Below, piece by piece: positions 1,447 through 33,805 of a stretch of DNA of 41,242 nt. Location of the stretch: positions 1 through 41,242 of the forward strand of contig CAJVPI010000223.1 of the NCBI GenBank assembly GCA_910592345.1, in the 5' to 3' direction. Each line of letters starts with the position of its first letter. Within the stretch, counting starts at the first letter, position 1. The translations under genes and the position numbers were made by a program. The notes beneath the pieces are model-generated. The model ran no database searches, had not been told where the DNA came from, and saw only the letters and a program-made list of their open reading frames with translations. The DNA comes from Paraglomus brasilianum (Eukaryota).

Positions 1447-2299
1447 TATTAGATGATACTCAAACAGTTTTGGTGAAACGCCAGAATTATTTATTTCCGA
1501 GGTAAGTAATAATCGATAGTATTAATTACAGTGATATTTAATTTGACGCTGTATTTATTTTTATTTAATAGTTCAGAAATCATGTCAAGTGCATAATAAT
1601 AACCAATGATGGCATCCTTAAAATTTATGGAGTCACACAAGACCCAAAAACAAAAGAATACAACGATTGTTATGCAATATGCTAACAATGGTAATCTTTT
1701 GTCTTATTTGGAGCAAAATATTAACAAATTGACATGGTACAGGAAATTATGGTGTTTGCGAATGATCCGTGTACTATCCATGATGCAGGATTTGTACATT
1801 GTGATCTCCATGCCGGAAACATTGTTCTCGACGACTATGGCATTACAAAAAAAGAGGTTCAAGCAAGTAACTCATATCTTGGTCTCTCACGATCGGTGAA
1901 TTCGCGCGAGTCAACCGTTCGAGGCGTTTTACCCTTTATTGCACCGGAAGTCTTTCATACCGGCAAATTTACTCAGAAATCAGACATATATGCAGTTGGT
2001 ATTATTGTGTATTTGATTGCCTCTGGTAAACCACCTCTTAGAGATAGGCAGTTCGATAGAGATTTAATATGCAGCATTATGACCATTGATGCCTGATTCT
2101 GCACCAGATGAATACAAGAAACTTGCCGAGCGCCAGGTTGGCAAAGGGTGATAATTATGACAGCAACGTATGGAATGCCGTTTATCATAATAATGTAAGA
2201 CTTTTGTCACGTCTAGAGAAGGAGAGTAAATATTCTAGTAAGCTCTTACCTACAAGAGAATTACCTAAACCAAGAAATAGGATTCAGCTGCAGGTATGA
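1447..2299 (+). pseudogene. frameshifted tyrosine-kinase-like protein kinase pseudogene
   Basis: Kinase motifs are split over several frames: IVMQYANNGNLLSYL, IHDAGFVHCDLHAGNIVL, GVLPFIAPEV, KSDIYAVG. The DLG/DFG motif is degraded to YLG and the C-lobe is partly deleted. 5' boundary approximate. Confidence 0.85.
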
Positions 2300-4135: not shown

Positions 4136-6220
4136 TTTGACTTTTGTTCAACTCTTTTTTCTTTAGACTGCTTAATACTATGTATAGTTTGATCCTGTGC
4201 GTTTAATATTATTACTGGCTGTGATTTCGCAATACGCCCGCCCGATTGTTACTGGTAATTGTCTATATGTAACGTTGTCGTTATTAAGCTATTTTGCTTA
4301 TAGTTTAAAGCGAAAGTAATTCCCAATTATGGCGTATCTAATGTTCTTTTTCTAATACTCAATTTCATCGATCGCTAATCGAAAGCAATTGCTGCTAAAA
4401 GGGCGTAGGAGGATTCTTTATAAATAAAACTAAGAGGTACAATTATTACGGCAATTTTATTGTCACTATGTGCTTATATTCCTTTTACACTTTTGTTTAT
4501 ACTTCTTCATGTCGTGTAACATGACGCAATTTTTTGATGTATCGGAAGCTGGAAAGTTTTGAAAAATTGCTCAACGAATTCGAATTATTGAAGAAATCTC
4601 ACTATCGAAGTGCGTTGTTAGCTGTAGTCTGCATGTGGAAAGAACAAAAGTCAAGTCTATATATGCCTTGTAATATGTGAGTCAATTGTTAATATGTTTT
4701 ATTCAATTCGGAATTTTGTTCGGTCGTGATGGGCATCAATGCCAAGAGGAAAAAGACTTACCGGAATAGATTAAAGCTTTTCAGGGTGCACATTTTTTCA
4801 CAGTTGTTAATTTAGTTTAGAAAAATTTAAACGGTAATCTGATTAAACTAAGAAAATAATTGATAAGATAATCTGTGACAATGGCAAATTTAAACCTTTT
4901 CGGAGAGTAAGTTACACAATGTAGTTATATATAACTATAAATCTATAACTTTCTCATTATTGAACGCAAAAATCCTGGTTTAACCATTTTGGCGAAATAA
5001 TAGGTCTTGTTGAGCCAGAATGAGATTGTTACCCTTTATAATAATAAACACACATTCCTTCAGTAAAAACTTTCCAGCTCATAACTTATCCTATTTAGCA
5101 ATAAATTTACAGTCAATACCACTAATGTACCACCACTATACTGCATACTCTATTTTGTTAAATTATGTAAATGTATTTATTCGAGATAGCTTCATCTTTA
5201 ACATTTATTCAATGGATAAAGATAAGTAGTATAGTATGCGCGAACAGTAGAAACACAAAATATACCAAAGTCATCATTAGTAAGATAACGCAAAATCCTA
5301 CGTGAAATAGCTAGTATTTTATTGGAAGACTGGAAAGCATAATATTATTTGTATCAAACACTTATAGTATATAAAAAGGAATTGTTATGTAATTGTTCCA
5401 GATAATGTATACAAACAATCAGCGGCGAATTGAACAATAGTACGTAAAGTAATTTAAATTCCATGTCTACCTGATTTGAGCAAACTGTCGACTTTTTAAA
5501 AAACCGGCATGTCAAAACGTTGGCCTTTTAATTAGTCCGTGACTGGGGTCCAGCCCTGTCTTATGGCAACCTTTATCGTTAAAATGTCTACATATTCCCC
5601 AAGTATGACAATAGTTGTCAATGCATATTTTTTTCTATCATCATACAGGTAATATACCTAGAGAGAATGTTTCATAATGATTGATACAAAGGTGCAATTT
5701 AACAACGTCAAGGGGACAGCTCACAACAGTAAACAGGTTGGCTTGGGGTTGTGTTACGCAGTTAATAGGTAACCTCGGGTGTATTTAACCTACCACTTGC
5801 ATAAAAAAAGTGAACTAACTGATGTCTGGTTAATTATTTAAATAAATTTCGACCGTTTAACAAACTAGAGGTACCAGCAAGAGGACATAATGCTACTTAT
5901 AGAATGTTATGCGCTTAATGTTTACGCTTAGTTAAACCGTAAGCGTCCTGCATTTTCTGAATAAAGCATGACCTACGCCAAAACCAATTTGATAACTTCA
6001 GATATAACTTCAAATATTTATTACAAATTTTGCAAAACAAATAACAAACTATATTTACAACAACAACATTGATTACAGAAACATGCGGTAAAGATAAATA
6101 ATTTTTTCCATTAGAATGTCAAAATTAATACAATAAGTAATTATTATTAAAACTAGTACGTTTTCGAGCCGTCCGTGACGTTTGTAAGACTTATCGAGTT
6201 ACCAATTTAGTGGCTTTCGG

Positions 6221-6346
6221 TCACATAATCGAACAGTTGCTACCAGCTGGACCGTCATTTGGATTTGATCCGTAATTCGTAACCTTTTGAAGGGTTTCGA
6301 CAATAGCGGCGAGGATATCGTTAGCTTGAGCGTTATTTCCGTCCAT
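6221..6346 (-). CDS. 41-aa CAAX-terminated peptide, candidate lipopeptide pheromone precursor
   Basis: ATG at 6346, TGA at 6223-6221: MDGNNAQANDILAAIVETLQKVTNYGSNPNDGPAGSNCSIM*. CAAX = CSIM directly before the stop, an internal Asn-Tyr, CAACATG start context, many C-ending codons in AT-rich surroundings, and an upstream TATA box. Confidence 0.7.
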   Translation of the reverse strand: MDGNNAQANDILAAIVETLQKVTNYGSNPNDGPAGSNCSIM

Positions 6347-6506
6347 GTTGATCAGTTGTGTAGAGATGTGGTGTAAAGTGGTTTAAAAGTTGATTTTGTT
6401 GATTGTTTAATTGTTTGATTGATTTGCTTGTTCAATTTATTTGATTGACTTCGTTGGGCCTGCCTGCTTAGCAATGAGGAGAGAGGGGAAGATGCAAAAC
6501 TTGTGC

Positions 6507-6513
6507 TTATATA
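6507..6513 (-). promoter_or_regulatory. TATA box of the CAAX peptide gene
   Basis: TATATAA on the minus strand about 160 nt upstream of the ATG at 6346, followed by a CT-rich stretch and an A/C-rich leader. Confidence 0.5.
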
Positions 6514-7691
6514 GCTTACTTATGGTGCACGTATTTACACACACTAATATTGTCTTTAATTCAAACAATAGATATCAACCTTGCATATACGAGTTAAGTT
6601 ATCGAATTGGATAGACACACCTGTGACATGATACAATGCATACCCTGCTTTTCACGCATGCTGCAAAGCAAATCTTGCCGTGCATGTGATGCTTATAAAA
6701 TCATTTGATGTTCTTTGTGTTTCGGAGGTATTTCGGGGATGCGTAAGCAACTAATAATATTTTAACACAGTTTTGCGTTATCGCTGCTAATATATTTTCG
6801 CTAACATTCAAGGGCCGAGTTTTGCCGATAATAATCTATAAACAATTTTAACAATGCTATTTCCTACTACATTACATTCAGCATTATATTACCCTCACAG
6901 CCATCCCAAGGCAAAAATTTTGGACTAGTTACTTTGACCCTTAAGATAATAAAATAAATAATGTAACAACTCAATGATATTAACAATTGAAGCCAAAAAT
7001 TACTAGGACATTCTAATTTAGAAACTAATAACAGGACTTTCCTCACTATCATCTATGTCGTAGTTGGAATTAAGTTACCTAATCGATCTTACAAATATTT
7101 ATTAAAATTCAAACTTATTATGACTATTGGCTGTGATGCGGACGTTGAGAACGGAAATCAGAAACTCAGGGGCGATCGAGAAATAAGCAAAGAAAGCTGC
7201 AGAACAAGAATAAATCTTGTGGCGCACATAGCTTGACTCCCTTTAGAATAATCTCTTTTTGTACGAACCGATGCCTATAAAGCTTTACCACTATAAATGA
7301 AGCAAGTCACAACTAAGGACTGCTGGTTGTAAGAACTGGCTTTGCTTTGCCCGAGAAAAGAGAGTTATAAACATTCGTACGCATGGTTTTGAGATTATTA
7401 CGATAAGAACACGCACGATATTATTTTGCAACCTCCGCACACGGTCATCTAATTTGACACAGCGCAAATAATTTCCATTTAATGACATACGCTAGGCAAA
7501 GTCTATGAAGTTAAACACCATTGTGCAGTGCAGCATGAGCATAAAATTACTAGGCATGCATTCTGGGAAGTCTAAATGAAGGAACAAATGATAAAATGAA
7601 AACATACTAACTAGTACGAATGCATACTCTTGTCACACATATTGTCACACTAATGCTTTTAGCCGAGTTCGTTTGCTACTTATCATAAAAA

Positions 7692-9476
7692 ATGTTCAAG
7701 AAACTAGGAAAGCGAGCGCTTATCAGCGATTCACTTAAACGTGAAATATGTGCCTTTCATAATGATAACATGTTATGTACTCATGTTGAGATTGCGGCTC
7801 ATTTCAACGCTACGTATAATTTCAACATTGACCAGACAACCGTCAATAAGATATTAAATAAGAAAGATAAGTGGCATTATGCTGAAGGTGTGTCTAAAAA
7901 CGCTTTTAAGCATTATCGAATTAAAGCATGGATATTAAGCAGAAGGGGACATGCCTGCAGTACGCTTAAGAACTATGACAGGGCATTAAGCGATTTCAAA
8001 AGAGTGACAGAGATTGATCCAAACAATGCTTGTATTTTTAGAGCAAGAGGTACTATTTATTGCAAGATGAAGTATTATGACGTTGCATTAAATGATTTCA
8101 ACAAATCATTAAAGATTGAACCGAATGATGCTTGGGCGCTGAGAGAACGGGGAGAAGTCCATCGTTTGCTTTATAATTATGATAGTGCGCTAGAAGATTT
8201 CGACAAATCGTTGGAGATTGAACCCGATCACCCTTGGACATTGAGCCGAAGGGGAGATGTTTATTATAGTCTTGATAGATATGATGAAGCATTGAGGGAT
8301 TTCAATAGTTCATTGACGATTAAACCAAACCAAATATGGGCTTTGAACAAAAGAGGACATCTCTATTACTGGTTTGAACGGCATGAAGATGCGTTAGTTG
8401 ATCTTACAAAGTCGTTAAAAGCCAAGCCTAAGAATGCATGGGTATTAAGAACAAGAGGAGCCGTCTATTTTAATAATAAGCAGAATAGTGCTGCTCTAGT
8501 AGATTTCAGTAAATCATTGTCCATTGAACCTGATGATGCATGGACGCTAAGTAGGAGGGGCGAAGTTTACTGTGCACTAAAACAGTTTACTAATGCTATT
8601 AACGATCTCAATAGATCGTTGGAGATTGATCCTAATGATGCGTTTGCATGGAGTAGAAGGGGAGAAGTTTATTGCGCACTAAAACAGTTTGATAATGCTA
8701 TTAACGATTTCAATAGATCGTTCGAAATCGTACCTGATGATGCATTCACATGGAGTAGAAGAGGAGAAGTTTATGTTATGTGTCATGACTACGACAATGC
8801 ATTGAATTATCTCAACAGATCATTAGAGATTGAACCAAATGACGCATTTGCATGGAAGAAAAGGGGATTTGTTTATCGAATGCTTGAAAAGTACGACAAG
8901 GCACTGTATGATTTCAATAAATCTTTAGCGCTTGAACCGCAAGATGCAGTCTCATTGAGGATAAGAGGGTATGTCCTTTACTGGCTTGATCGATATGATG
9001 ATGCGTTGCTCGATTTTAACAAATCATTGGAGCTTGAACCAAATAATGCTTGGGCGCTGGCGCGCAGAGGGGAAGTTTATCGTATGCTTAGTCAATATGA
9101 CAATGCACTGGACGATTTTACGAAATCGTTGGATATATGCCCAAACGGCGCAGCGGCATTGAGAAGTAGGGGCGAGATCTATCGTATTATGTCAAAGTAT
9201 GAAGACGCATTGAGCGATCTTAACAAATCTCTGTCCATTGAACCAACTAATGCTTGGGCGTTGAGTTGCAGGGGATCCGTTTATTATTCGCTTGAACGAT
9301 ATGATAACGCATTGAGCGATCTCAATAAATCTTTGGAAATAGAACCTGATCATGATAATGGGTGGTCACATAAAGCAAGAGGAGATGTTTACCGCAAGCT
9401 CAATCGGTACGATGACGCATTGAGTGATTACAACAAGTCGTTGGATCTTAGTCCCCAACTAACGCATCTGCGTTGA
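7692..9476 (+). CDS. CENP-B/pogo(Tigger)-type N-terminal HTH fused to 15 TPR repeats (594 aa, intronless)
   Basis: Residues about 1-78 (KRALISDSLKREICAFH...HVEIAAHFNATYNFNIDQTTVNKILNKKDKW) resemble the first HTH of pogo/CENP-B/Abp1 transposases. The rest is 15 counted ~34-aa TPRs (AW.L.RRG.VY..L..YD.AL.DFNKSLEIEP). Confidence 0.9.
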   Translation: MFKKLGKRALISDSLKREICAFHNDNMLCTHVEIAAHFNATYNFNIDQTTVNKILNKKDKWHYAEGVSKNAFKHYRIKAWILSRRGHACSTLKNYDRALSDFKRVTEIDPNNACIFRARGTIYCKMKYYDVALNDFNKSLKIEPNDAWALRERGEVHRLLYNYDSALEDFDKSLEIEPDHPWTLSRRGDVYYSLDRYDEALRDFNSSLTIKPNQIWALNKRGHLYYWFERHEDALVDLTKSLKAKPKNAWVLRTRGAVYFNNKQNSAALVDFSKSLSIEPDDAWTLSRRGEVYCALKQFTNAINDLNRSLEIDPNDAFAWSRRGEVYCALKQFDNAINDFNRSFEIVPDDAFTWSRRGEVYVMCHDYDNALNYLNRSLEIEPNDAFAWKKRGFVYRMLEKYDKALYDFNKSLALEPQDAVSLRIRGYVLYWLDRYDDALLDFNKSLELEPNNAWALARRGEVYRMLSQYDNALDDFTKSLDICPNGAAALRSRGEIYRIMSKYEDALSDLNKSLSIEPTNAWALSCRGSVYYSLERYDNALSDLNKSLEIEPDHDNGWSHKARGDVYRKLNRYDDALSDYNKSLDLSPQLTHLR

Positions 9477-10437: not shown

Positions 10438-12976
10438 TCAGGCAATTCCCAATTCCTCCGATTCCTTAATCTTAGCAGACAGAAATTCAATGACTTGATC
10501 AATACTTCTATCCGACTTATCGAACAAGAGGCTACGAAATTCCTCCAGTATAGCATAGTATTTCAAAGGGGCATATTTAAGTTGTTTTTCAAATTTGTGA
10601 TATATCATCACGAGTTTGTGGGCCATAATGTCTTCTGCGTGTATACCTTTGTTCCAAGTCGTAATACCATCACAAAGAATGTCCACAACGGTATAGAAAA
10701 GAGACTCGACGTCGTCGTCGAGAGTATATAAATAGGACTTTTGAGCAATCAGACACTCCATGATCTAAAAGATAATGGCTTTGAGTTAAATTCTGAAGAA
10801 TAGAATACTAATTATAATACAGTGAAAGCAAGATACAATACGGATATAGAGCAGTATAATAATGTTGCTGATAAATCTTTCGACTCTCCAGAATTCGAAT
10901 GTAATGCGATACCCCAATCGATGAGGTATCCATGGCCATTAAAGAGGATTATATTAGAGGGTTTGATGTCGCGGTGCAAAATGTTGTGTTGACTAGCCAA
11001 TTTCATGGCCTCGGCGACATCTCGTATGGCACCAAGAACAACCCGCAAACCATGTTTTGATATTTCGAGGTGTTCACCATATGGTTTGATCACAATGAAC
11101 CTATATACGCAGTATCAATCGAATATTAATTAAAAACAGATAAGGCAATATCGTCCAACCTAGCATACCTTTGACCATTTTCAAACGTTCCATAAAAATA
11201 GACCTTGGGAATAAACTCAATCTTAAAACAAGCAAGTTCATGAAGAATATTACGTTCTCCGTCACTAGTAGAAGACTTGACTATGGCCTTATTTCTTGCG
11301 GTGCGGTCACCAACTTCGCCAGCATGAGCAAGCCGATCGAATCCTTCTGAGTAAAATCGAGAGAAAGCAAGCCCGACCGCTTATAATTATGTCGCTTGTC
11401 CCTATATAACAATTCAATCTGTGAGTCACTTGCAATGGCCCCGAAAACTTCCTTCCTATCTTCTTGCTGATCGAAAATGTTCGAAAACTTATCTGCGAGT
11501 TGTCCTATCGCGTTATGGTGTTCGTCAGGAGGATTTTTGCCAGAAGTGTCTCCCTTGTCACCTATGCTAAATTTTAATTCGATTGCTGCAACGAGCTGCG
11601 GCCATGATGGGGTAGCTCCATCGAGGATGGCTAAGTCAATTTTGGCTATCGGGTCTTTAAAGTAGGTTTGACTCGACGAGTCATGAATAATCCATGGATC
11701 TTGCGGCATTTTTGAGAAGAACGCGTTAAATTTCTTTTGGGTGTCACTTTTACATTGACATAAAATTCTCAGGTCTTCCGATGATAAATCTAGACCACCA
11801 AGTATGTCTGTATTATTTTGAAAACGATCGAAGAAAAATTTCGAATTGATTTCAGCTGTTGCCAAGACACGAGCCGCAATGTCTAATGCTGATGTAATAG
11901 TGTGTTTTGATCTGGCGATTTGCTCACGAATTTCAGCATGCTCAGCTTCTCTCTCTCTCTCTTTCTCTTCGATAGCACATAACCTTTTGCGAATTTCGTT
12001 ATCTTCCTCGGGGTATCTTTTATGAGAGACTATAAGAGAAGCACTATGAGTATTATCTTAGGTAGGCAATATCAATTGTATAAAAACAAACTTACCTGGC
12101 ACTGTATGGTGATAAAATTGAAGGATGGCAAAGCAAGGTGAACAGAATAAACAAAACAATGCAAGCCAAATTATCAAGCCAGAAAGTATTGCTATCAAAG
12201 AGGTATGAATATGAATGGTTACATACTGAGTGATTCCTTGAGCTTTAATATACCATCCTCAAATGCTGCTTGCTGTATGACGTTTAGAGGGGGCAACTTG
12301 CCAATGTATTCACGAATAATGTTTTTATCAATCTTAATAAACTGGTTGAACATGTCCTCAGTGAAGCCTGCTTTAACAAGCTCTTTGTAGCATGTTCCTA
12401 GATTAATTTGGTCCAGGAAATCTTTAAAAGTAGGAATTTGTGGTTGCTGATGTGCAAATCAAAGGTTCAGGAATGTGAATTTGAAATGAATATGTGACTA
12501 CAAATTCCAAGTACTTACTGGTTGAGTGGTGGTTGAGATTGATGCTCTGTATTCCTACAAAGACATGTATTGGATTAGCAGTGGAAAAGACAGTGGAAGT
12601 GACATTGACCAAAAAAGCTGGTTCTCCAACCTTCTGGCAGAATGTCAAAATTCACCTGATTATATACTAATACCATGTCATCACTTTGTATTGGTGATTG
12701 TGGTGGGTTCAGCCCCTAGATAGAACAATAATGTTGGTTTCTGTATTTGTATTAAAACAATAAATGAAATTTTTGCAATAGAAATCGTTAATTCACCTTG
12801 ATGTTGATAAACATTTTATGTTTAGTAAGGCAATGACTGACAAGAACTTGGGCATTTTGCTCGTTGAAAGTTATATTGTTGAAGACTTTCTTTTTGTTGG
12901 TACAATAATTACATGCCCAGGTACCTTCCCTGACCATAGAACAATTCTGTCTGTAGAGCTTTTCCACATTAAACAT
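10438..12976 (-). pseudogene. multi-exon ZnF / SAM-like / coiled-coil / PD-(D/E)xK-like / FunK1 (fungal-type) kinase gene, interrupted by an in-frame stop and apparent deletion
   Basis: Kinase motifs: HRDIKPSNII, LIDWGIA, SATLLYCS, DDDVESLFY. FunK1 N-terminal region: KIDLAIL..WPQLVAAIELK..AIGQL..IFDQQEDR. GT-AG introns are frame-compatible (e.g. 11101-11168). A TAG at 11281-11283 lies directly before VKSS, and the Gly-rich loop is missing. Confidence 0.75.
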
Positions 12977-13373: not shown

Positions 13374-13949
13374 CCGGCGCAAAAAAGTTGATACACCAAT
13401 ATGCTTATAACAGAAAAAAAATTTTTTTTTTTGAAATTCATTCACATGCTTAAATAAATTGACTTACAAATTGAATGTATCAGTAGAAATTTATTAAAAC
13501 ATGTACGCAGACAAAAAAAGGTTTACTAGTCATCAATTTCTTCAACTTCGAGATCTTCACTGTCACTTTTGACTAATAATATCGTTTAAATTTTCCTTGG
13601 ACGCTCTTGCATTCTTCGCTCTGAACGCTTTGAGATTTTTACCGTTATCATATTCAGCAACCTCCTTGCGTAGTGGCAAGTCTGGACGTTGCGTCTGGCA
13701 CTGTCGAGTATTTAAAAAGTATTGGTGAGCGCGAATAATCATTCGTTTTTCGTTACTGGTTAAAGAACTTTGCTCTCTATCTAGGTCTTCCATGGGAAAG
13801 ATAAATGATCAAGTTTGTCACGAATATTTGAAGTCGACATTTTCCTTACATTTTATTTGATTTGTATGCTCACATGATTGTATTAGCAAATTTTGTACAT
13901 GTGAGGAATTTCAGGTGACGAATTTCGTGTATCAACTTGTTTGCGCCGG
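13374..13949. mobile_element. internally deleted TIR DNA transposon (Tc1/IS630-like, inferred)
   Basis: 23-bp TIRs ccggcgcaaaaaagttgatacac (13374-13396) and gtgtatcaacttgtttgcgccgg (13927-13949), 1 mismatch. TA on the left flank only. Encloses a 76-aa minus ORF (13563-13793) that looks like fused transposase N- and C-terminal stubs. Confidence 0.75.
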
Positions 13950-16483: not shown

Positions 16484-16957
16484 ATGAACCGCAATTTACT
16501 GTTTCTATTCTTTTTCTTGGCTTCGATTTCAGTCATCAACGCTGTTCCGCACCAACTCAATAAAAGAGCTACCGAGTTCAAAAAATGTCCGCCAACTCCT
16601 GGCAATCCTGTTGACGTCACGGAACTCACGGTATCTGTAGTGCCAGATTCTATCGTTTCTAATCAAAACGCTACATTTACAATTTCTGGGACTGCAAAAG
16701 TGGATATTCCCACGGATTCCGAAATTTCGATCGTTTACAACAAGATTGATGCACGTGGGCATGTTATAGGCACACCCTTTTTTGCCTTATTTTGCGGAGA
16801 CAACGATTCTTGTCCAGTTAAAAAAGAAGATAAGTTTACTCGAACGCTTACAGCCGAAGCACCGACATTACCCGCCGCATATGCTGTGACAATCATACTT
16901 AATACAAGTGATCCAGAAATAGTATATGGCTGTGCACTAGCTATAGTCGGAGTGTAA
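16484..16957 (+). CDS. secreted ML (MD-2-related lipid-recognition / NPC2-like) domain protein, 157 aa
   Basis: The true start is likely the ATG at 16484 (MNRNLLFLFFFLASISVINA signal peptide). Then PHQLNKR (KR Kex2-type site) and FKKCP...LTVSVVPD...FTISG...FC....CPVK...YGCA, the 4-Cys beta-sandwich pattern. Confidence 0.85.
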   Translation: MNRNLLFLFFFLASISVINAVPHQLNKRATEFKKCPPTPGNPVDVTELTVSVVPDSIVSNQNATFTISGTAKVDIPTDSEISIVYNKIDARGHVIGTPFFALFCGDNDSCPVKKEDKFTRTLTAEAPTLPAAYAVTIILNTSDPEIVYGCALAIVGV

Positions 16958-21392: not shown

Positions 21393-23629
21393 ATCGTTTT
21401 ATGTCATCCTGAACTAATTCAAACATATGGTAGTTCTAATTTATGTCGATCAATTACTCATGCAAATTGTAAATTTACAAAAAAGGTATGGTTGATTTTT
21501 TGATGGGACGCTCAACTGGGGCATTTATTGATTCAAATGAGTAACGTTTTTGACCTTTTTTGTGTGTAATACACATAATAAAAAGAATTTTGCATTCGAC
21601 TGTAGTATTTATTTCGTCATAAAGCTAATCCGAACATAGCTAGAATAATCAAATCATAGCGTAAACACAGTCCAAAAAGTATAGCTTGATTGGGCAATGG
21701 GAAAGTGAGAAACTGAGGCGTTAGCTTGGAGTGCGTGGCAATGCTAAATACGAAAACAATTAATAATTGCTTTTTTGGAAAGATTGGCTCATTTATTCTT
21801 ACAGTAGTAAGTATTTATTAATTATGAAATTAATACACAAATTGCGTAAGTGTAATAAAAAAGAAATTGAAGACATGTCAGGTTAAATGGTAAAATGTAA
21901 TGCAAGATGGAAGTATAGTTTGAATATTTCGATAGGACAATAACACACAGTTTTATTAGCATTTATTAGTGCATGCATGGGAATGATTGTTTTATTTTCA
22001 TCACGAGCTAATTCAAATATAGTACTTGCTTATGTAGATCAATCATAAACATTAACTTCGTGTGAAAGGTATGCTATGCGATTGGATTCGAATAACCCAT
22101 ACACTTTAAATCTGATATTAACGTTCATTAATTTGGTAAAAAATTTAAATATTTTAAGCTTACCTGAGTTTAGTTTAATCGTATAGAAATGATAATCACT
22201 GGTGTTCGATTAAATCGCACATGGGTTCGACATTTATTAGAGAATAATAGAACAGAAAGTAGCTAAATTTTTAGAGAGCATAGAAAAGGTGTATACAAAC
22301 TCTAGTCACTACAGTATTTCTTGTGCTTTATGATGATATTATTTATTATGTCGTTTACGTTTTATCGTCATTATGACAAAGATGACGACTCTTATGATGG
22401 GTGTGGGAAAAAAATATGCTCATAGATAAGATCCCCCCGCACGAAACATTACTGTTCTGTAAATATGTATTCGGACGACTCGAATGGCGAATAAGCATCA
22501 AGAAAAAGTCAAAAGAAGTTAGTAGCATGTCCAGGTGATGATGATGATGATGAAAATGTACCTTATGTGAAAAACATTAACTAAACTACACACAGCATAA
22601 TGGTTAGTATTGTATGTCCGTTTGGAATTTATGTCATTCCGAATAGACATGTATGTCAGATTGGAATAGTAAAGACAAGCAGGTAACAACATTATAAAAT
22701 TATTTATTGGCATTACGATACCAACACTACTTGCGTATAAACAACTGAGTTTGTTATAAATATATGCTATTTTAACGTTTGTAAGTTCATAAGGAATAAA
22801 TAAACACAAGTAACTTGTGATATTACCACTTGTATTACGTCTTTATATTATATCGTTCGAATCTCACCTTATGATACAATAAATAGTATTACATACAACA
22901 ATTTACTGCACTGTCGATTATGACAGTTAAATATGCTTCATATTCATAACGTCATATGTAGTCATGTCACAATGTAAACTCTGTCAAATCCCCAAACCCG
23001 CATTTACATACGTAAAACATTGAAAATTCAGAACGTTTATTTGGAAGACATTGCATGTACACTGTCACAAGAAGAATCGTATAACACATGTGATCAAAAT
23101 AGTGTTTATTCTCACAAAAAACTGCACAATTCTATGCCAATGCCGAAGATTAGGAAAAATGGTGTGAATTTCAACTACTCACAGAACGGTTCATTCAATT
23201 GAAAAGTTCGATAAAGCGTACGTATAGTATGTTATATTGACAAACTCTAAACGTTAATTCGTAAGCCGTATATTGATCATCAAATTATTCGACAAATTGT
23301 GCACATACAGACAGAACCACAAGCCGTATGGTTGAATCCTTCGGCAAAACCATACAATTCGTCAAATTGTATGATTAACACAAACCCGTTTGATAACTCG
23401 ACTCATCAAGCAATAAATAATGCATAATAACAATGGCGATAGTGAACAGTACATTGCCGTTCTACCATTCTGTTTATCGCTTAAACCAAATCCTCTACAA
23501 GAGTTGGTAGAAAATTGAAAAGCGCAATTTGTTGATTTTCACACGATCTGTCAGTATTTTAGCCCAAATTTGGTGGCTTAAACCTAGATGATTAAGTCTT
23601 GAATATCATTCTCCGAATTGGAAATTTCA

Positions 23630-24100
23630 CTAACGTATTCAGTAACTCAAAGCATTCTTTCACATGATAATGTCAGTTAGGTGATATTTACTCGCATCGC
23701 AAGCAAGGAATATCACAATGATGTGCCGAGCCACGTTTATCTTGCTAACGTTTTTAGTAACTCAACCATATTCACAATGATATATTTACTTATTTGCATT
23801 CACGCACGCTATAAAACATACATAAAACGCACAAATAAAACACATACATAAAACGCGGCATAAAAGCCACCAATAGATTCGCTAACGTATTCAGTAACTC
23901 AAAGCATTCTTTCACAATGATGTGTCAGGCGATGTTTTCTCCGCACGAATAGAAGAACTACTATTACAAATCATTGATAACCTATTCAGTAACCCAAGAC
24001 ATTTATTCAGTTTGCACAAGAGACGTTCTTTATCCAGGAAATATCTTAACTTGTTTAGTTATTCAAAACGTTGTCTGTAATCGACACGTCACAATGATAG
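23630..24100 (+). repeat. array of about 5 degenerate ~40-45-bp repeats inside the Ginger-like element
   Basis: ctaacgtattcagtaactcaaagcattctttcaca occurs at 23630 and 23882 (near-identical), with variants at 23745, 23977 and about 24046. Confidence 0.75.
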
Positions 24101-24300
24101 CTTAACTGAACTATAAATCGCAAGTAAACCTGTCATTGTTAGTAAATAAATAAATATATAAATAAATTATATATTTTTTATCATCAACCAGTCATTTTAA
24201 TTTTGTCTATTTATTTACTTTAAATTTTGAGTCACTGAACGATGAATAAACTTACTGACAATACTATAACAAATTTGCTTACACATTCTCAAATAATAAA

Positions 24301-24600
24301 GTGCATGAAAATAGATTATGCCAGTTAGAATGCTCTTCAGGTATACTTAACATCCAATATTCAACCACTAATCTTGAAATAATCGAGTCTGGCATTCACT
24401 ATACAGAGCTGGAAAATATACCTCTTAGAAATGTGACATTGCATAAAGCCGCTTCAGCTCAAAGTTTGGTCAATTTAACCAAGATTAGATGTAGTTGTAA
24501 GACTAGTTGTTCAACGGCTCGATGTGCTTGTCGCAAAGCTGCTGTCATTTGTAACGTAAACTGCCACCCTCATAATCATCAATGCAGTAATGTTAATTAG
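24301..24600 (+). pseudogene. C-terminal remnant of a Ginger/KRBA2-like integrase
   Basis: CSSGILNIQYSTTNL...VTLHKAASAQS...CSCKTSCSTARCACRKAAVICNVNCH...CSN is the Cys-rich tail typical of this transposase family. No DDE core found upstream. Confidence 0.7.
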
Positions 24601-26012
24601 GTACATCGTTGTTCTGTGTATTCTAACATGTTTATATGCAGTAGAGTTAATATTGTAATGTCAATAAAATAATTTTATAATGTTGTTACCTGATTGTCTT
24701 TATGATTCCAATCTGACATACGTGTCCATTCCGAATGGACATACATCAGTTGCACTTGTTTGTTCTCATATGATTACCTAAAACCCATGCTTTATGTTCT
24801 TAGATTAGACGTGCCAATTTTGTTTTTGCTGGAGACATCTAAATTTTATAGGTAATCAAGTTTGTTATGCACCATATGCAGGAAATTTTTCAAAGCATTT
24901 ACTAATTTTTGTTTATTTATTTCAACAAATTAAAGTAGTTAGGATTATACAATAATACAAAATACAATATTATTCAACTTGCTTTCTCATAATAATAATA
25001 GGTATCCTCTGAAAAATTAATAACAATTAATTAATAATTATAATACATTGTCGTGCCGGGAGAGCAGAAAGTAATCGACACTTGGGAGTTAACTAGTCTC
25101 GACGGAGCGTGACGCCTCCTATTCAAGTTAAATATCTAAGGGTACAGTTAAGGACCTTGTCAATGTCAAGGCTTTTCACTTATGGACTTTTTCACCGTAG
25201 AATAACGTTTTATCCTGGATATAGAATCGCTCTCGAGTGTATCGGCGGTTATTATCGAGGAATTAATCCGATAATCTCCCGTTTTGGGGTACAATGGTTT
25301 ATCAATAAGATTGAACGCATTCAATTAAGTATCTTAATTCGCCACTCAGATAATTGCGGGACAAGAGGCAATTATTCTTCGTTGATATATGGATATAACG
25401 GTTTCTCAGATATATCAACTAATTTAGAGAATAGGGTCGATAATATAGGTTCAGAGTAAATACGATATTCGTTTATTAACAATAAATATAAATTATAAGG
25501 AATATAAGGATCTTAATTCACTATGCAAAACATTGCGAACATAACACGCCGACTCTAGCTGAGACTCCTACTGCTTATATATCTTTCGATCAGTCTAATT
25601 GAACTATTTTTAGTCGCCACTTCTAATATTTTATTACTACTTCTCCAGTATACGATTTATTTGCATTTGCACCGCTGCTTCAGTGGTGCTGCAGTGGTGC
25701 TGTACAACCCGTACTATAAACTTTCGTACGACTGCACCGTTTGTACTCGTACCACTGTTACCGATTTCCGCAGCTGCGTTGTGTTGGTGTTACCGCTGAT
25801 TAAAATGTTGCTGCGGCATCGTCGGAGGAACGCAGAAATAGAGGAGAAAATACGTCACCGATTGCGGCGCATCACAACATGAACTTACAAACATAACAAA
25901 GACATCATTAATACATCACTATTAGATAACCCTTCACATTAAAATTAATACCAAATGACAAAGTTTTAGTGAAATACAAAATCATGTCGGCTACCATAAT
26001 AATAATTTGTGA

Positions 26013-28740
26013 CTACTGTGTGAACCAATTTTTAATCATTTTTCCTATATTCTTTTTCTTATTATAATAGCTTTCAAGATAGCTTTGTGCATCAACATTT
26101 CCTTGTTCAGCTGCTGTATGATACAATACAACTGCCTTTTTAAAATCTTTATCTACTCCAATTCCATGTTGATAGCAATCAGCTAGATTAACTTTTGCCT
26201 TAGCATTCCCTTGTTTAACTGCCTTTTGATATAATTCAACTGCCTTCCTAGCATCCTTCTCTACTCCAATACCATGCTGATGGCAATAACCAAGATTATT
26301 TTGTGCCTTAGCATTTCCTTGTTCAGCTGCCTTTTGATATAATTCAACTGCCTTCCTAGCATCTTCTTCCACTCCAATTCCATATTGATAGCAATAGCCA
26401 AGACTATTTTGTGCAGGAGCATTTCCTTGTTCAACTGCTTTTTCATATAATTCAACTGCTTTCTTAGTATCCTTCTCTACTCCAATTCCATGTCGAAAGC
26501 AATAACCAAGATTATTTTGTGCCTCAGCATACCCTTGTTCAACTGCCTTTTGACATAATTCAACTGCCTTCTTAGCATCTTTCTCTACTCCAATTCTGTT
26601 TAGATAACAATAACCAAAATTACTTTGTGCAGCAGCATTTCCTTGTTCAACTGCCTTGCGATATAATTCAATTGCCTTCTCAAAATCTTTCTCTACCCCA
26701 ATTCCAAGGCGATAACAATCAGCAAGATTATTTTGTGCCTTTGCATTTCCTTGTTCAACTGCCTTTTGATATAATTCAACTGCCTTCCTAGCATCTTCTT
26801 CCACTCCAATTCCATGTTGATAGCAATAGCCAAGACTATTTTGTGCAGTAACATTTCCTTGTTCAACTGCCTTTTGATATAATTCAGCTGCTTTTTTAGT
26901 ATCTTTCTCCACTCCAATTCCACGTCGATAACAATAACCAAGACCATTTTGTGCATTAGCATTACCTTGATCAACTGCTTTTTGATATAAGTCAACTGCC
27001 TTCTTAGCATCTTCCTCTATTTCAATCCCATGCTGATAGCAATACCCAAGACTATATTGTGCCTTAGCATTTCCTTGTTCAGCTGCTTTTTGATACAATT
27101 CAACTGCCTTCTTAACATCTTTCTCTATACCAATTCCATTTAGATAGCAATCAGCAAGATTATTTTGTGCATTAGCATTACCTTGATCAACTGCCTTTTG
27201 ATATAAGTCAACTGCCTTCTTGGTATCTTCCTCTATTCCAATTCCATATTGATAGCAATAGCCAAGACTATTTTGTGCAGTAGCATTTCCTTGTTCAACT
27301 GCCTTTTGATATAATTCAACTGCTTTTTTAGCATCCTTCTCTACTCCAATTCCATGTTGATAGCAATGACCAAGACTATATTGTGCAAAAGCATCATTTT
27401 TTTCTGTTGACAATTCATACCAGTAGATTGCTTGATTAAGGTTCTTTTCAACTGTTATTCCATATTCATAAAAAAAGCCAAGTAACCCAAAACATTGCCC
27501 ACAGTCAACATGACCTTTGAGCCTCTTAACTGGAGTATAACTCTGTTGATACCATCCATTATGTGTTAACCAGTTTTTAATTAACTTAGCAATCTGATCT
27601 TGAATTCTTCCTGTTATATTTAATAATTCTCTTGACAGCCCATCAGTAAATGAATGATTATGATCTGAAACTGTCACTTGTTGACTCATTATGCTTAATC
27701 TATCAGAAATCTGCTCACAAGATGGTCTTCTCTCAGAAGTATCATCCCAACATTCCGAATATAAGGTGATATATTCTTCAGGAGTTCCTAAAACCGGAGC
27801 ATCTCGATTACCCATTAATCTATAAGTTACAATGTCATTGTAATGCTGGAGTCCATTACACGGTCTTCTTCCGCCTGAGATTTCCCATAATACCACTCCA
27901 AAGCTAAATATATCTGACTTTTCATCACGCTTAGTAGAAGGGTCAGATAAACATCTGGGGTCAAGATATGGAAGGGATCCCTTTATGTTGGAATGGCTTT
28001 TTTGTTGTAATATCAGATCAGACAAACCAAAGTCTGTTATTTTCGCTATGCCGGCATCGATCAATATATTATGTGAAGACTAATAATAAAGTTGTCAATT
28101 ATTATAGAACGTTCTGAACATATAGTATTATTTCAGTTATAATTACCAAGTCTTTATGTAAAATACGACGTTCGTGAAGATATCTCAAGCCATTAATGAT
28201 ATTGATACCAAGCTTGCATTTCGTAGGCCAGTCCAGTTCAACAGATGGATCCGATAAGTAAGATCGTAATGAACCACCGTCAGCGTACTTGAAGACCATT
28301 ACATATCTGTTAAGCGTATCTATGAATTGAGCTTCTGTTAATGTATGTAATAATTAAGTGTGCCTCCTCTAACCTCCTCAATGCTGACCTTTACTCACTC
28401 CAAGAAATCGAATTACGTTGGGATGATCATCGACTCTGCGATGAATCTTAAGCTAAAAGTATCGTTGGGTGATTTAAGTAAAGCAGTAAATTCAATACAA
28501 AGTTGCCATTACATTACCAACCTCCTTGACAAAATTTTCGATCTCATCTTCGTTTTGTGAATGCAAAAGTTTGTATGCCACCATTCTACCAAGTGACTTC
28601 ACTTTAGCTTTAAAAACCGCTCCATATCCTCCGCCACCGATGTATACGACGTCAATAAAGTCATCGAACGAATAAAACCGAATGCTTCCATCTTCAATAT
28701 TCTCGCTTAACCATTTTTTATCAGACTGACTTGAGGCCAT
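26013..28740 (-). CDS. tyrosine-kinase-like protein kinase with 13 C-terminal Sel1-like repeats (4 exons)
   Basis: Exons 28740-28522, 28452-28389, 28319-28147 and 28079-26013 splice in frame via GT-AG. Motifs GGGGYGAV, VAYK, HPNVIRFLG, HKDLSSHNIL, DFG, GSLPYLDP, KSDIFSFG. Then 36-aa repeats AQ..LGYCY..GIGVEKD.KKAVELYQKA.EQGN. Confidence 0.92.
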
Positions 28741-31700: not shown

Positions 31701-32081
31701 ACCGTCCAGATATTCGTATGACAGATTTTTGGATTTGCATATGCCGTAACAAAGACACAAATACTATCAAGAATATCAAGGGAACGCAATATTCTTTGTC
31801 TATACAGGACAACATACAGTCTCCTCCAATAAATGGCGGGTAACACAAAATTTTAATAGTAAAACATATAAAGTCTTTATATTTCCTGCTCTTGTGTACT
31901 ATGCCGTAGTGCAATAATTTTTGTGTGGTTCTGAAGCTAATTGAATATGCTTTTCGAGAAAAATGACAATAAAGTTGATAGGTTATTACTATTAAGCTGT
32001 AGCAAGTTGAAGCAGCTGTTTTTAAATCACGATATGAAAATATATATATAGCACGTATACTCACACTTTGTCGAGCTATTA

Positions 32082-33595
32082 CAGTCCAAGAGATTTATGG
32101 ATTTGTCCAAGCAGATCATTTATTTAGAAATTTCTAGATTTAATTACAGAAAAAAAGCTTCAATTATTGTTCTTTATTAGTATTAATAATGCTTTCGGAT
32201 AACATATTTCTAACATCCTGAAGAGCGTCATTATATAAATCATCGCGAGATTTACTTGATAAATCTCGAAAACGTGATCGTTCTAAATCACCTAAAAAGA
32301 GTTAATAATAGATAAAAGTTGTGATTTTGTTAACGAACTTTCAGCTTTTTGATTATCTGCTTTTTCACGTGTTACTGGAATTGGTTGCCAGATGTCTTCT
32401 TAATTAGCCGCGTTTTAATAAAGTCTATTCTTTTCGTCCGTGCAATTCACTAAATTTTTTCATTTCTTCACTTAGTATCCATTTACCGCTTATATCCTGA
32501 AAACCACGATCACAGGTATTCGGATTTACAATTGTGTCTTTTTTATCCGAACCCGAAATCTATGCGATTCAGTAATAAAACTAGGCATATGTTTTTCACC
32601 TGAAGAATATCCATTATATCACAAATTTAGTACAATTACGTGCCGCGATTTCCCAATGCTGTTGTGAAGGTGCAAAAGGAACTAATGATTTGAATGCTTT
32701 GTTTATTTCTTCGCTCAGCAAGCCATTTGGAAGGAGAATATTCTAAAAGACTACCTAAACCAAATCGCTCATGGTTTTTTATCAAACTTATTATATTATC
32801 GTACAAATTACCTCGTTCTCTCTCAGTAATTTCCGTCACGCACCTAATACGATGTTGTTGGTCGGCAAATGGTTCATCTAACCGCTTCTTTAGTACCGTA
32901 TTCTCAGATAGCAATTAATTGCTGATTGAAATTTTCTAGTTCCTCGAAAGCATTTCATCAGGCAACGATACTTGGACTCCAGAATCGCAAAAAGTCTTCT
33001 TGAACACCGGCACCTTGTTATCGTTAGAGAGTCTTAATTTTTTTCTGCCCGAATCTAAAAAACTTGAATCTAGTTTAGTGACTCGTTTAATACGTACGTA
33101 TAAGACTTTTTAACGATAGTCTGGTTATAATGTCTTTCACATAAAGAGTAATTCTCTAGAGAATCAAGGAATGCAGATAGTTCAGGATAATATTTAACAT
33201 TTCCATTATTCCTTTTGCTGCAGCACTAGCTGACGTACGACGCCATCTTTGGTTTTCCTTAGTCTCGCATTCTACTAAGACTAACTGACTTTCGACAAGA
33301 GAATCGAACAAACAAGGCAAGCAACTTTGGCTTCTAGTCTTGCATTCATTATGTACGAAGTGTAATGTTTAAACTGGGTTTAAGAGAAAACTGTTTTCTA
33401 AAGTTGCATGGATCCCCGTGTATTCTGAGACTATATGCTCGTAGAAGTATGTTGCTACTGTTAGTTTTGTTTCTATTTGATTGATAAAGCGTCATCAAAT
33501 TCTCTATGCTAAAAATATTGTACACCAATCAGATTGCGAGGAAGCTGCAGACTATTCTAGAATCTGATTTACAGATTCGGAAATCTCTCGGACTG
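32082..33595 (-). mobile_element. 1.5-kb internally deleted TIR element of unassigned superfamily
   Basis: Left end cagtccaagagattt; right end reverse complement cagtccgagagattt, with similarity extending about 35 bp. Flanked by TATTA on both sides (32077-32081, 33596-33600). The interior holds stop-interrupted minus-strand coding remnants (LCERHYNQ; LLEYSPSKWLAER; SSLTKSQLLSIINS). Confidence 0.75.
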
Positions 33596-33805
33596 TATTA
33601 ACTTATAATAATAATTTATAAAAATTTATTGTTATTTTTTTCGAAAAGCATAATCAATTAGCTTCAGAACCATACAAAAATTATTGCACTTTACATACGT
33701 ACGTAGTACAAAAGAGCAGGAGAGATTTTTAAAAAGAAAGACTTTTACTATTAAAATTTGTGTTACCCGGTCATTTATTATATGAACCAATTTATCTATT
33801 ACTAT

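What the first reader, a model, noticed from the sequence alone, without database searches (positions are those of the whole stretch)
7692..9476. Transposase DNA-binding HTH fused in-frame to a 15-TPR array
Seen: one uninterrupted 594-aa ORF whose first ~78 aa look like the pogo/Tigger/CENP-B N-terminal HTH. It switches abruptly (FKHYRIK|AWILSRRG) into TPRs where the second HTH and DDE domain would follow. No TIRs were seen around it. Inference: a domesticated transposase-capture gene that could act as a TIR-binding regulator or one-component sensor-transcription factor, or a young chimera.
Basis: partly seen in the sequence, partly recalled or inferred. Interest (0 to 1): 0.7.

Follow-up and report, generated by a model that had tools for sequence, protein, structure and literature searches.

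The report
Transposase DNA-binding head fused to TPRs
A mycorrhizal-type fungus carries one open gene that joins the first DNA-binding module of a Tigger/pogo jumping gene to fifteen protein-binding TPR repeats; the module has lost key DNA-reading residues, so it likely acts at most as a weak DNA tether for the repeats rather than as a sequence-specific regulator.

Summary
The fusion is real. ORF 7692-9476 (594 aa) has HTH_ABP1_N at residues 7-58 (above Pfam cut-off) and 15 TPRs. Residues 1-78 match a Glomeromycota-type Tigger/pogo transposase (P0154) at 54/78 without gaps, from its own start codon to the last residue before its second HTH; the TPR array starts at position 1 of a repeat. Contigs from 3 of 3 independent soil studies cross the junction, and the source DNA holds two more junction-bearing paralogs. 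The HTH groups with a Paraglomus occultum protein. Domestication is not shown: the one relative whose DNA I could read in full (L001) is a pseudogene; omega is 0.5 for the TPRs (p 0.02-0.04) but 1.1 for the HTH (95% set 0.4-3). The hydrophobic core is kept better than neutral drift predicts (p 0.01-0.02), while the helix-3 arginine, invariant in donor transposases, is Gln, and the second HTH is missing. Transcription across the junction has one weak hint. Best reading: a lineage-restricted host-transposase chimera in a fast-turnover TPR family, probably a TPR adaptor with a weak DNA tether, not a TIR-binding regulator. I found no report of this architecture.

The parts
7692..9476 (+). Single-ORF chimeric gene, 594 aa (P0001): Tigger/pogo HTH1 + linker + 15 TPRs
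7692..7925 (+). Transposase-derived part, residues 1-78: the donor's own start codon, first HTH (predicted helices 13-25, 31-42, 48-56) and the inter-HTH linker
   Evidence: 54/78 identical, ungapped, to P0154; HTH_ABP1_N 7-58; AF2 model pLDDT 74, best VIA-align match CENP-B 1hlv Z 7.1, rmsd 3.2, 63 aligned
7833..7847 (+). Start of predicted helix 3 (DNA-reading helix): QTTVN where donors read RTTIS (R48Q shared by the whole fusion-like clade; I51V and S52N only in this copy)
   Evidence: role of helix-3 start from PMC11178893 passage
7925..7926 (+). Fusion junction K78|A79, inside one exon; last residue before HTH_Tnp_Tc5 on the donor side, position 1 of a TPR on the host side
   Evidence: bridged by contigs of X4, X5, X6, X9, X18, X21 and L001
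7926..9476 (+). 15 tandem 34-aa TPRs (consensus A-W-A-L-x-R-R-G-x-V-Y...Y-D-x-A-L-x-D-F-N-K-S-L-E-I-E-P-N-D) of the type expanded in Glomeromycota
   Evidence: closest named relatives 38-42% identical over the searched part: kinase-TPR, BTB-TPR, SPRY-TPR of Rhizophagus, Gigaspora, Entrophospora
7665..7691 (+). 5' leader block kept in other copies; homology to L001 and to paralog contigs begins at 7665
   Evidence: (X4 record 3, X5 record 10)
7604..7662 (+). Upstream block shared with L001 (38/49 identical) with TTGTCACAC twice (7630, 7642), followed by a possible branch point and splice acceptor (CTAAT...TTTTAG, 7650-7662); role unknown, perhaps a 5'UTR intron
   Evidence: inference only

Best explanation
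The 5' end of a Tigger/pogo transposase gene, from its own start codon through the first helix-turn-helix and linker, is joined in frame and without an intron to the start of a 15-repeat TPR array, and the product likely works as a TPR protein-binding adaptor whose transposase head probably still folds but likely gives only weak, non-specific DNA or nuclear tethering. Shown: the fusion, donor family, breakpoint, several junction-bearing copies with at least one dead, loss of the second HTH, and changes on the reading helix. Inferred: it arose by a deletion or recombination that joined an inserted element to a member of the Glomeromycota TPR family in a Paraglomus-like lineage, and was then copied and lost like other TPR genes there; translation; nuclear location (basic KKLGKR and KILNKKDK; HTH net charge +7); any DNA binding.
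For: Donor and breakpoint. One origin: window, L001/P0004, P0072 (P. occultum), P0045, P0152 form one clade, 98/93 support, nested in the P0154 family. Junction bridged in 3 of 3 independent soil studies laid and by two diverged paralog contigs in the likely source run. TPR part under moderate constraint: omega 0.51-0.56, p 0.02-0.04. Fold kept: 0 radical changes in 11 conserved hydrophobic columns against 2.4-2.5 expected (p 0.047-0.063) and profile score above neutral runs (p 0.010-0.018), while 3 of 12 conserved polar columns changed against 3.7-3.9 expected, so the surface was not spared. R48Q at the start of helix 3, the part said to confer core DNA binding (PMC11178893). Both breakpoints fall on domain borders. 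The same TPR type is joined to kinase, BTB, SPRY and AAA heads in related fungi.
Against: HTH omega against L001 is 1.1 (p 0.84; 95% set 0.4-3), so no selection on the HTH is shown. The simulation uses P0154/P0299 as stand-ins for the ancestor, part of the divergence may have built up while the donor was still an active element, and the gene was picked because it is open; the simpler column-conservation test gave p 0.056. L001 is frameshifted in the HTH and has a stop in TPR3; X4 record 3 has one-base deletions; P0072, P0045 and P0152 end before any TPR. Transcription rests on one contig of a run whose RNA status is a guess (X18); in the one run on record as RNA (X20) no piece reached the HTH. 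No binding of any kind was tested.
Confidence: 0.45

Rival explanations
1. Passenger leader: the element only supplied a start codon and perhaps a promoter to a TPR gene. The HTH is tolerated baggage with no role and is decaying; any function lies in the TPRs.
For: HTH omega 1.1 against 0.5 for TPRs; the stem of the fusion-like clade (0.2 changes per column) is far longer than most branches within the donor family (0.01-0.04); invariant R48 lost; broken copies are common; about 28% of neutral runs reached the same divergence without meeting a stop.
Against: Core residues and profile score are better kept than neutral drift predicts; diverged versions without frameshift in the covered part exist (X6 record 18: 18 differences in 243 nt, no gap; X18 record 1: 3-nt insertion); the TPR breakpoint is exactly on a repeat border.
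Confidence: 0.33
2. Domesticated sequence-specific regulator: the single HTH reads DNA (donor TIRs, or a new motif set by Q48/N52) and the TPR array recruits partners or senses a peptide.
For: Single-HTH readers of this fold exist: Brinker and Tc3A(1-65) entries and the Dan CENP-B_N domain are among the fold matches (that they bind DNA as single domains is partly recalled); R8, T50, K53, K58, W61 and H74 are kept; R48Q is shared by all five clade members, as a fixed change of specificity would be.
Against: Second HTH absent; three conserved polar positions changed, two on helix 3; no selection signal on the HTH; no second intact full-length protein; no TIR of the donor could be obtained.
Confidence: 0.17
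3. The HTH is not part of the product: it is a transposon scrap upstream of a TPR exon and is skipped by splicing or a later start, or the join is an assembly error.
For: AG dinucleotides lie at and near the junction (AAAG|CATGG at 7923-7931); X21 record 24 matches only from 7924; raw RNA reads were not available.
Against: Assembly error is excluded. The frame is open from the donor's own ATG; no branch point plus acceptor was found between 7663 and 8000 by a simple pattern; the first Met after the HTH's M27 lies inside TPR2 (M126); X18 record 1 crosses the junction unspliced (RNA status guessed).
Confidence: 0.05

Closest known systems
Tigger/pogo transposases of Glomeromycota type (P0154 family; full-length named relatives P0168 Rhizophagus clarus 'tigger transposable element-derived protein 6-like', P0171 R. 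irregularis)
   Same: Residues 1-78 are the N-terminus of this family: 54/78 identical to P0154, 29/78 to P0168.
   Different: No HTH_Tnp_Tc5, no DDE_1, no TIRs; R48Q, S52N, T9A.
Host-transposase fusion genes (KRABINER, SETMAR; 10.1101/2020.05.07.082677, passages seen)
   Same: A transposase DNA-binding domain in frame with a host protein-interaction domain.
   Different: There the transposase part always sits on its own exon and all 81 tested show dN/dS < 1; here the junction lies inside one exon, only the first HTH is taken, the partner is a TPR array ('tetratricopeptide' 0 times in that main text), and selection on the HTH is not shown.
CENP-B and fission-yeast Abp1/Cbh1/Cbh2 (PDB 1hlv, 1iuf)
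   Same: Same HTH family: profile hits E 3e-12 and 2e-11 over both HTHs of the donors; the model's best fold match is 1hlv.
   Different: These keep both HTHs, a DDE-like domain and a dimerisation tail (PMC4231638 figure legend); this protein has half the DNA-binding unit and TPRs instead.
Drosophila Dan / pipsqueak-type proteins (PMC11178893, passages)
   Same: Host proteins with a CENP-B_N-like HTH cut loose from a transposase body.
   Different: Old, conserved animal regulators with shown chromatin binding; no TPRs.
Glomeromycota TPR expansions (kinase-TPR, BTB-TPR, SPRY-TPR; TPR named as an expanded family in PMC11952901 and PMC9453076, passages)
   Same: Same repeat type, 38-47% identity, same habit of changing partner domains.
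   Different: None of the 120 listed relatives carries an HTH_ABP1_N head.
Bacterial RRNPP peptide sensors (PlcR, NprR, Rgg; recalled, from no call)
   Same: N-terminal HTH followed by TPR-like repeats.
   Different: XRE-type HTH, bacterial, known peptide ligand; only a likeness of layout, no homology tested.

Membership tests
pogo/Tigger transposase | First HTH (HTH_ABP1_N / CENP-B_N) | tested here: met
pogo/Tigger transposase | Second HTH (HTH_Tnp_Tc5) | tested here: not met
   tblastn with 6 transposases hits only 7692-7943
pogo/Tigger transposase | DDE_1 catalytic domain | tested here: not met
pogo/Tigger transposase | TIRs with TA target duplication around the gene | tested here: inconclusive
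   no enclosing inverted pair among those shown; no TACAGT or ACTGTA (recalled pogo end) upstream within 6000-7692; donor TIR sequence not obtainable
Domesticated host-transposase fusion gene | Transposase domain and host domain in one reading frame | tested here: met
Domesticated host-transposase fusion gene | Transcript across the junction | tested here: inconclusive
   one contig of a related allele in X18 (RNA guessed) bridges it; none in X19, X20
Domesticated host-transposase fusion gene | Purifying selection on the transposase part | tested here: inconclusive
   omega 1.1, 95% set 0.4-3, against a pseudogene; simulation p 0.01-0.02 with caveats
Domesticated host-transposase fusion gene | Intact orthologues in separate species | tested here: inconclusive
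   no second full-length protein; P. occultum P0072 is annotated at 54 aa; no fungal genomes searchable
Domesticated host-transposase fusion gene | Capture by splicing, transposase part on its own exon (vertebrate rule) | tested here: not met
   junction lies within one open frame in DNA
CENP-B / Abp1-type domesticates | Two-HTH DNA-binding unit plus DDE-like and dimerisation domains | tested here: not met
Sequence-specific transcription factor / one-component sensor | Specific DNA binding and ligand-dependent output | not testable with these tools
   only indirect: helix-3 changes
TPR array protein | Tandem 34-aa repeats with TPR consensus | tested here: met
   15 repeats

The most novel reading that the evidence does not exclude
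A Paraglomus-lineage transcription or chromatin regulator built by an intron-less joining of half a Tigger DNA-binding unit to a TPR array, in which the fixed Arg-to-Gln change on the reading helix gave a new DNA specificity and the TPRs recruit partners or read a peptide signal: a eukaryotic HTH-TPR one-component regulator made from a transposon, and a sign that transposase heads join kinases, BTB and SPRY as swap-in modules of the mycorrhizal TPR repertoire.
Probability: 0.17. Interest if true: 0.75.

Novelty: new variant of a known kind. Interest (0 to 1): 0.42.

Why it matters
Arbuscular mycorrhizal fungi carry large TPR, Sel1, kinase and BTB families of unknown use. This locus shows a transposase head entering that repertoire at base-level resolution, with the donor family, both breakpoints, and open and dead copies all in view, and by a route (a join inside one exon) that differs from the splice-capture rule reported for vertebrates. 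A published fungal screen for such fusions treated HTH_ABP1_N as a non-TE domain and asked for five genomes, so it would not list this kind. If the HTH still reads DNA it would be a new fungal regulator design; if not, it is a clear case of a captured domain losing its reading surface while keeping its fold.

Tried and rejected
No genome is held for the window, so copy number and the donor element in the same genome could not be searched. Exact protein not in the 15-billion collection. Word search with residues 1-110 among 326-1040-aa proteins: 0 of 63 candidates passed. HTH profile against longer proteins: 20 of 7991 scored candidates passed, 18 with HTH_Tnp_Tc5, 5 with DDE_1, none with TPR. 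phmmer over 1.84 billion representatives: of the best 150 listed (1369 at E<=0.001), TPR-only hits dominate; 7 short proteins match the HTH, and only P0004, whose contig has the length of L001, joins HTH and TPR. Donor DNA sought in viral and prokaryote contigs: nothing. Full-length AF2 without alignment failed, pLDDT 33.5; the HTH model rests on a transposase alignment and so leans to that fold; Foldseek gave no match at E<=0.001, 1hlv third with E 0.97; Z 7.1 is middling by the tool's own note. phmmer of residues 1-79 against PDB: 0 hits. ESM Atlas, two calls: TPR clusters only, scores under 0.9. NG86 dN/dS (0.56 HTH, 0.41 TPR) was set aside because the transition bias (69:19) inflates it; ML values are used. 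TTGTCACAC as a dispersed binding site: 10 matches with one mismatch against 10.4 expected. No kinase or other partner remnant within 5.6 kb upstream of the ORF among session proteins. X21 record 24 may be a TPR parent without HTH, but cannot be told from a fusion copy with a diverged linker. Lack of HTH cover in X19 and X20 is not taken as evidence against expression. No complex prediction was run: no named partner.

Full report
Setting. The window is about 35% G+C and holds a Sel1 array, an ML-domain gene, tyrosine-kinase-like and fungal kinase pieces and an AAA-ATPase-like gene, the kind of content reported for arbuscular mycorrhizal fungi (PMC9453076 and PMC11952901, passages only). The only named close relative of the N-terminus is CAG8587198.1 of Paraglomus occultum (P0072, 82% over residues 1-50). 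I therefore call the source Paraglomus-like; this is an inference. No genome is held.

The observation. The ORF is as described: 594 aa, no stop, with an in-frame TAA two codons before the ATG. Pfam gives HTH_ABP1_N at residues 7-58 above its cut-off and 15 TPR_1 stretches. The repeats run in a 34-residue register from A79, with two extra residues before the last.

The donor. A profile of 7 HTH pieces found 20 longer proteins among 7991 scored candidates; 18 carry HTH_Tnp_Tc5, 5 carry DDE_1, none carries TPRs, and the named ones are from Rhizophagus and Scutellospora. The best, P0154, matches residues 1-78 at 54 of 78 without a gap and shares the start codon position. It goes on FPLLEE, where Pfam HTH_Tnp_Tc5 begins at profile position 1, then to the YNADETG motif; the proteins of about 200 aa are probably first exons called on metagenome contigs (inference). 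So the chimera took the donor's start, first HTH and linker, stopped one residue short of the second HTH, and joined position 1 of a TPR. No other part of the transposase is in the window.

The junction is real and not unique. In the likely source run X4, one 1425-nt contig covers 7032-8456 with no difference. Three soil runs from three other studies were laid, and all three bridge the junction with at least 31 nt on both sides: X5 7876-8223 (1 difference), X6 7831-8019 (2) and 7727-7969 (18), X9 7812-7962 (1). X4 also holds two diverged contigs across the junction: 7665-7984 (22 differences, 25 gap letters, among them one-base deletions at 7701 and 7855) and 7862-8462 (71 differences); X5 has the same two. 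The one metagenome locus found (1 of 40 pattern hits), L001, is 202/219 identical in the HTH and 549/618 in the TPRs but has an 11-nt deletion in the HTH and a stop at codon 157. X21, of unknown kind, holds a copy matching 7689-7820 and 7906-8279 with a middle part 9 nt shorter, and another that matches only from 7924. The tables of both calls were cut, so I saw only the longest pieces. A tree of 67 HTH rows (50 different, 80 columns) puts the window, P0004 (its contig has the length of L001), P0072, P0045 and P0152 in one clade (98/93) inside the P0154 family.

Expression. Four runs were laid. X18, whose RNA status is a guess, has a 220-nt contig across the junction (7754-7970, 13 differences, a 3-nt insertion). 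X19 (guess) and X20 (on record as RNA) gave TPR pieces only. This is a weak hint and no more.

Selection. A codon model between the window and L001 gives omega 0.51-0.56 for TPR codons 79-284 (p 0.02-0.04) and 1.1 for codons 1-78 (p 0.8; 73 codons); the 95% sets are 0.3-0.8 and 0.4-3, so they overlap, and a dead partner pulls omega up. Of the 12 amino-acid differences, read against P0154, 6 fall on the L001 side, 3 on the window side, 3 are unclear. Against P0154 the 24 changed columns are slightly less conserved than random (0.59 against 0.65, p 0.056). Neutral simulations to the same divergence score lower on a donor profile (p 0.010-0.018) and bring 2.4-2.5 radical core changes against 0 seen (p 0.047-0.063), but conserved polar columns were not spared (3 changed, 3.7-3.9 expected). 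That test uses present-day transposases as stand-ins for the ancestor and the gene was chosen for being open, so it leans towards constraint.

The reading surface. With an alignment of 28 rows, AlphaFold2 gives residues 1-78 three helices (13-25, 31-42, 48-56), mean pLDDT 74; the best match among 48,161 chains is CENP-B 1hlv (Z 7.1, rmsd 3.2, 63 aligned, a middling score), and the donor profile hits 1hlv and Abp1 1iuf by sequence. R48, at the start of helix 3, is present in all 45 distinct donor rows that cover it; it is Gln in all five clade members. T9 (92%) is Ala in the four that cover it, counting L001 by its DNA. This copy alone adds I51V and S52N. [quoted passage not shown] With the second HTH gone as well, tight binding to the donor's TIRs is unlikely; a changed specificity cannot be excluded.

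The TPR side. The closest named relatives among 120 listed (148 passing, 7996 scored) are kinase-TPR, BTB-TPR and SPRY-TPR proteins of Rhizophagus, Gigaspora and Entrophospora at 38-42%. An HTH profile run over the 293 proteins then held found 30 positives; only P0001 and P0004 also have TPRs. The array is thus a module that changes partners in this fungal group, and the transposase head is one more partner.

How it most likely works. A Tigger inserted in or near a TPR gene; a deletion or recombination joined its linker to a repeat start in frame; the element's start codon, and perhaps its leader, came to head the gene; the chimera was duplicated and several copies died. The open copy likely makes a TPR adaptor with a small basic three-helix head (net charge +7 against +10 or +11 in donors) that could bring it to the nucleus or to DNA weakly (0.45). 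The head may be mere baggage (0.33), a specific reader (0.17), or left out of the product (0.05).

What is in print. Eight full-text searches (listings seen) showed no pogo-HTH-TPR fusion. Cosby and colleagues (10.1101/2020.05.07.082677, passages) report vertebrate fusions always on separate exons, with purifying selection in all 81 tested. The fungal screen PMC10799480 (abstract, one methods section, passages, term searches of three supplementary files) lists HTH_ABP1_N only as a non-TE domain in the rows I saw, asks for five genomes, and has no PF00515, TPR_1, PF03221 or Paraglomus entry; 'TPR' occurs 51 times as a substring in file 1, of which I saw two, both parts of other words. PMC7325037 and PMC4231638 were seen as passages. 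Supplements of the bioRxiv paper are closed and may list TPR partners. The library lacks most subscription papers. Earlier notes of this scan held nothing on this genome or sequence; a word search gave analogous transposase-head fusions in other organisms, unchecked.

Verdict. Observation confirmed; capture confirmed; domestication and TIR binding not shown. A new variant of a known kind, interest 0.42.

Noticed in passing
window 22630-24743: A 2.1-kb element with about 115-bp inverted ends (87% alike) and a 113-aa open stretch at 24259-24597 ending in a cysteine cluster (CSCKTSCSTARCACRKAAVICNVNCHP), no Pfam hit; probably a non-autonomous DNA transposon. A 56-nt piece next to its left end recurs, inverted, at 1021-1074.
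   Followed up: partly
window 31828-33779: A second element with about 180-bp imperfect inverted ends (80% alike) and no long ORF.
   Followed up: no
window 13374-13949: A 576-bp element with 26-bp inverted ends (CCGGCGCAAA...) holding an 81-aa open stretch on the minus strand without Pfam hit; possibly a short relic of a DNA transposon.
   Followed up: partly
window 26013-28600 (-): Kinase-Sel1 gene: 13 Sel1 repeats in a 600-aa last exon with kinase exons upstream at about 27670-28590, the common mycorrhizal layout.
   Followed up: partly
window 10438-12057 (-): Fungal protein kinase (Pkinase_fungal) gene in several pieces, facing the HTH-TPR gene tail to tail; a possible synteny marker.
   Followed up: partly
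window 1599-2096 (+): Kinase domain piece split over two frames, probably an intron-bearing or broken gene.
   Followed up: no
window 37791-39932 (+): AAA-ATPase_like (PF09820) gene in several exons, a family mostly known from bacteria (recalled).
   Followed up: no
window 16484-16957 (+): Single-ORF ML (MD-2-related lipid-recognition) domain protein with a signal-peptide-like start.
   Followed up: no
window 8054-9193, run X4: Short stretches of the TPR array draw contigs with summed depth in the thousands to 100,000 against about 23 for single-copy flanks, which points to a very large family of related TPR genes in this organism; depth is not a copy number.
   Followed up: no
window 7692-7925 vs L001 953-1175: 16 of 17 single-base differences in the HTH are transitions (kappa about 35) against kappa about 5 in the TPRs; might reflect methylation-linked mutation of transposon-derived DNA, or small numbers.
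   Followed up: no
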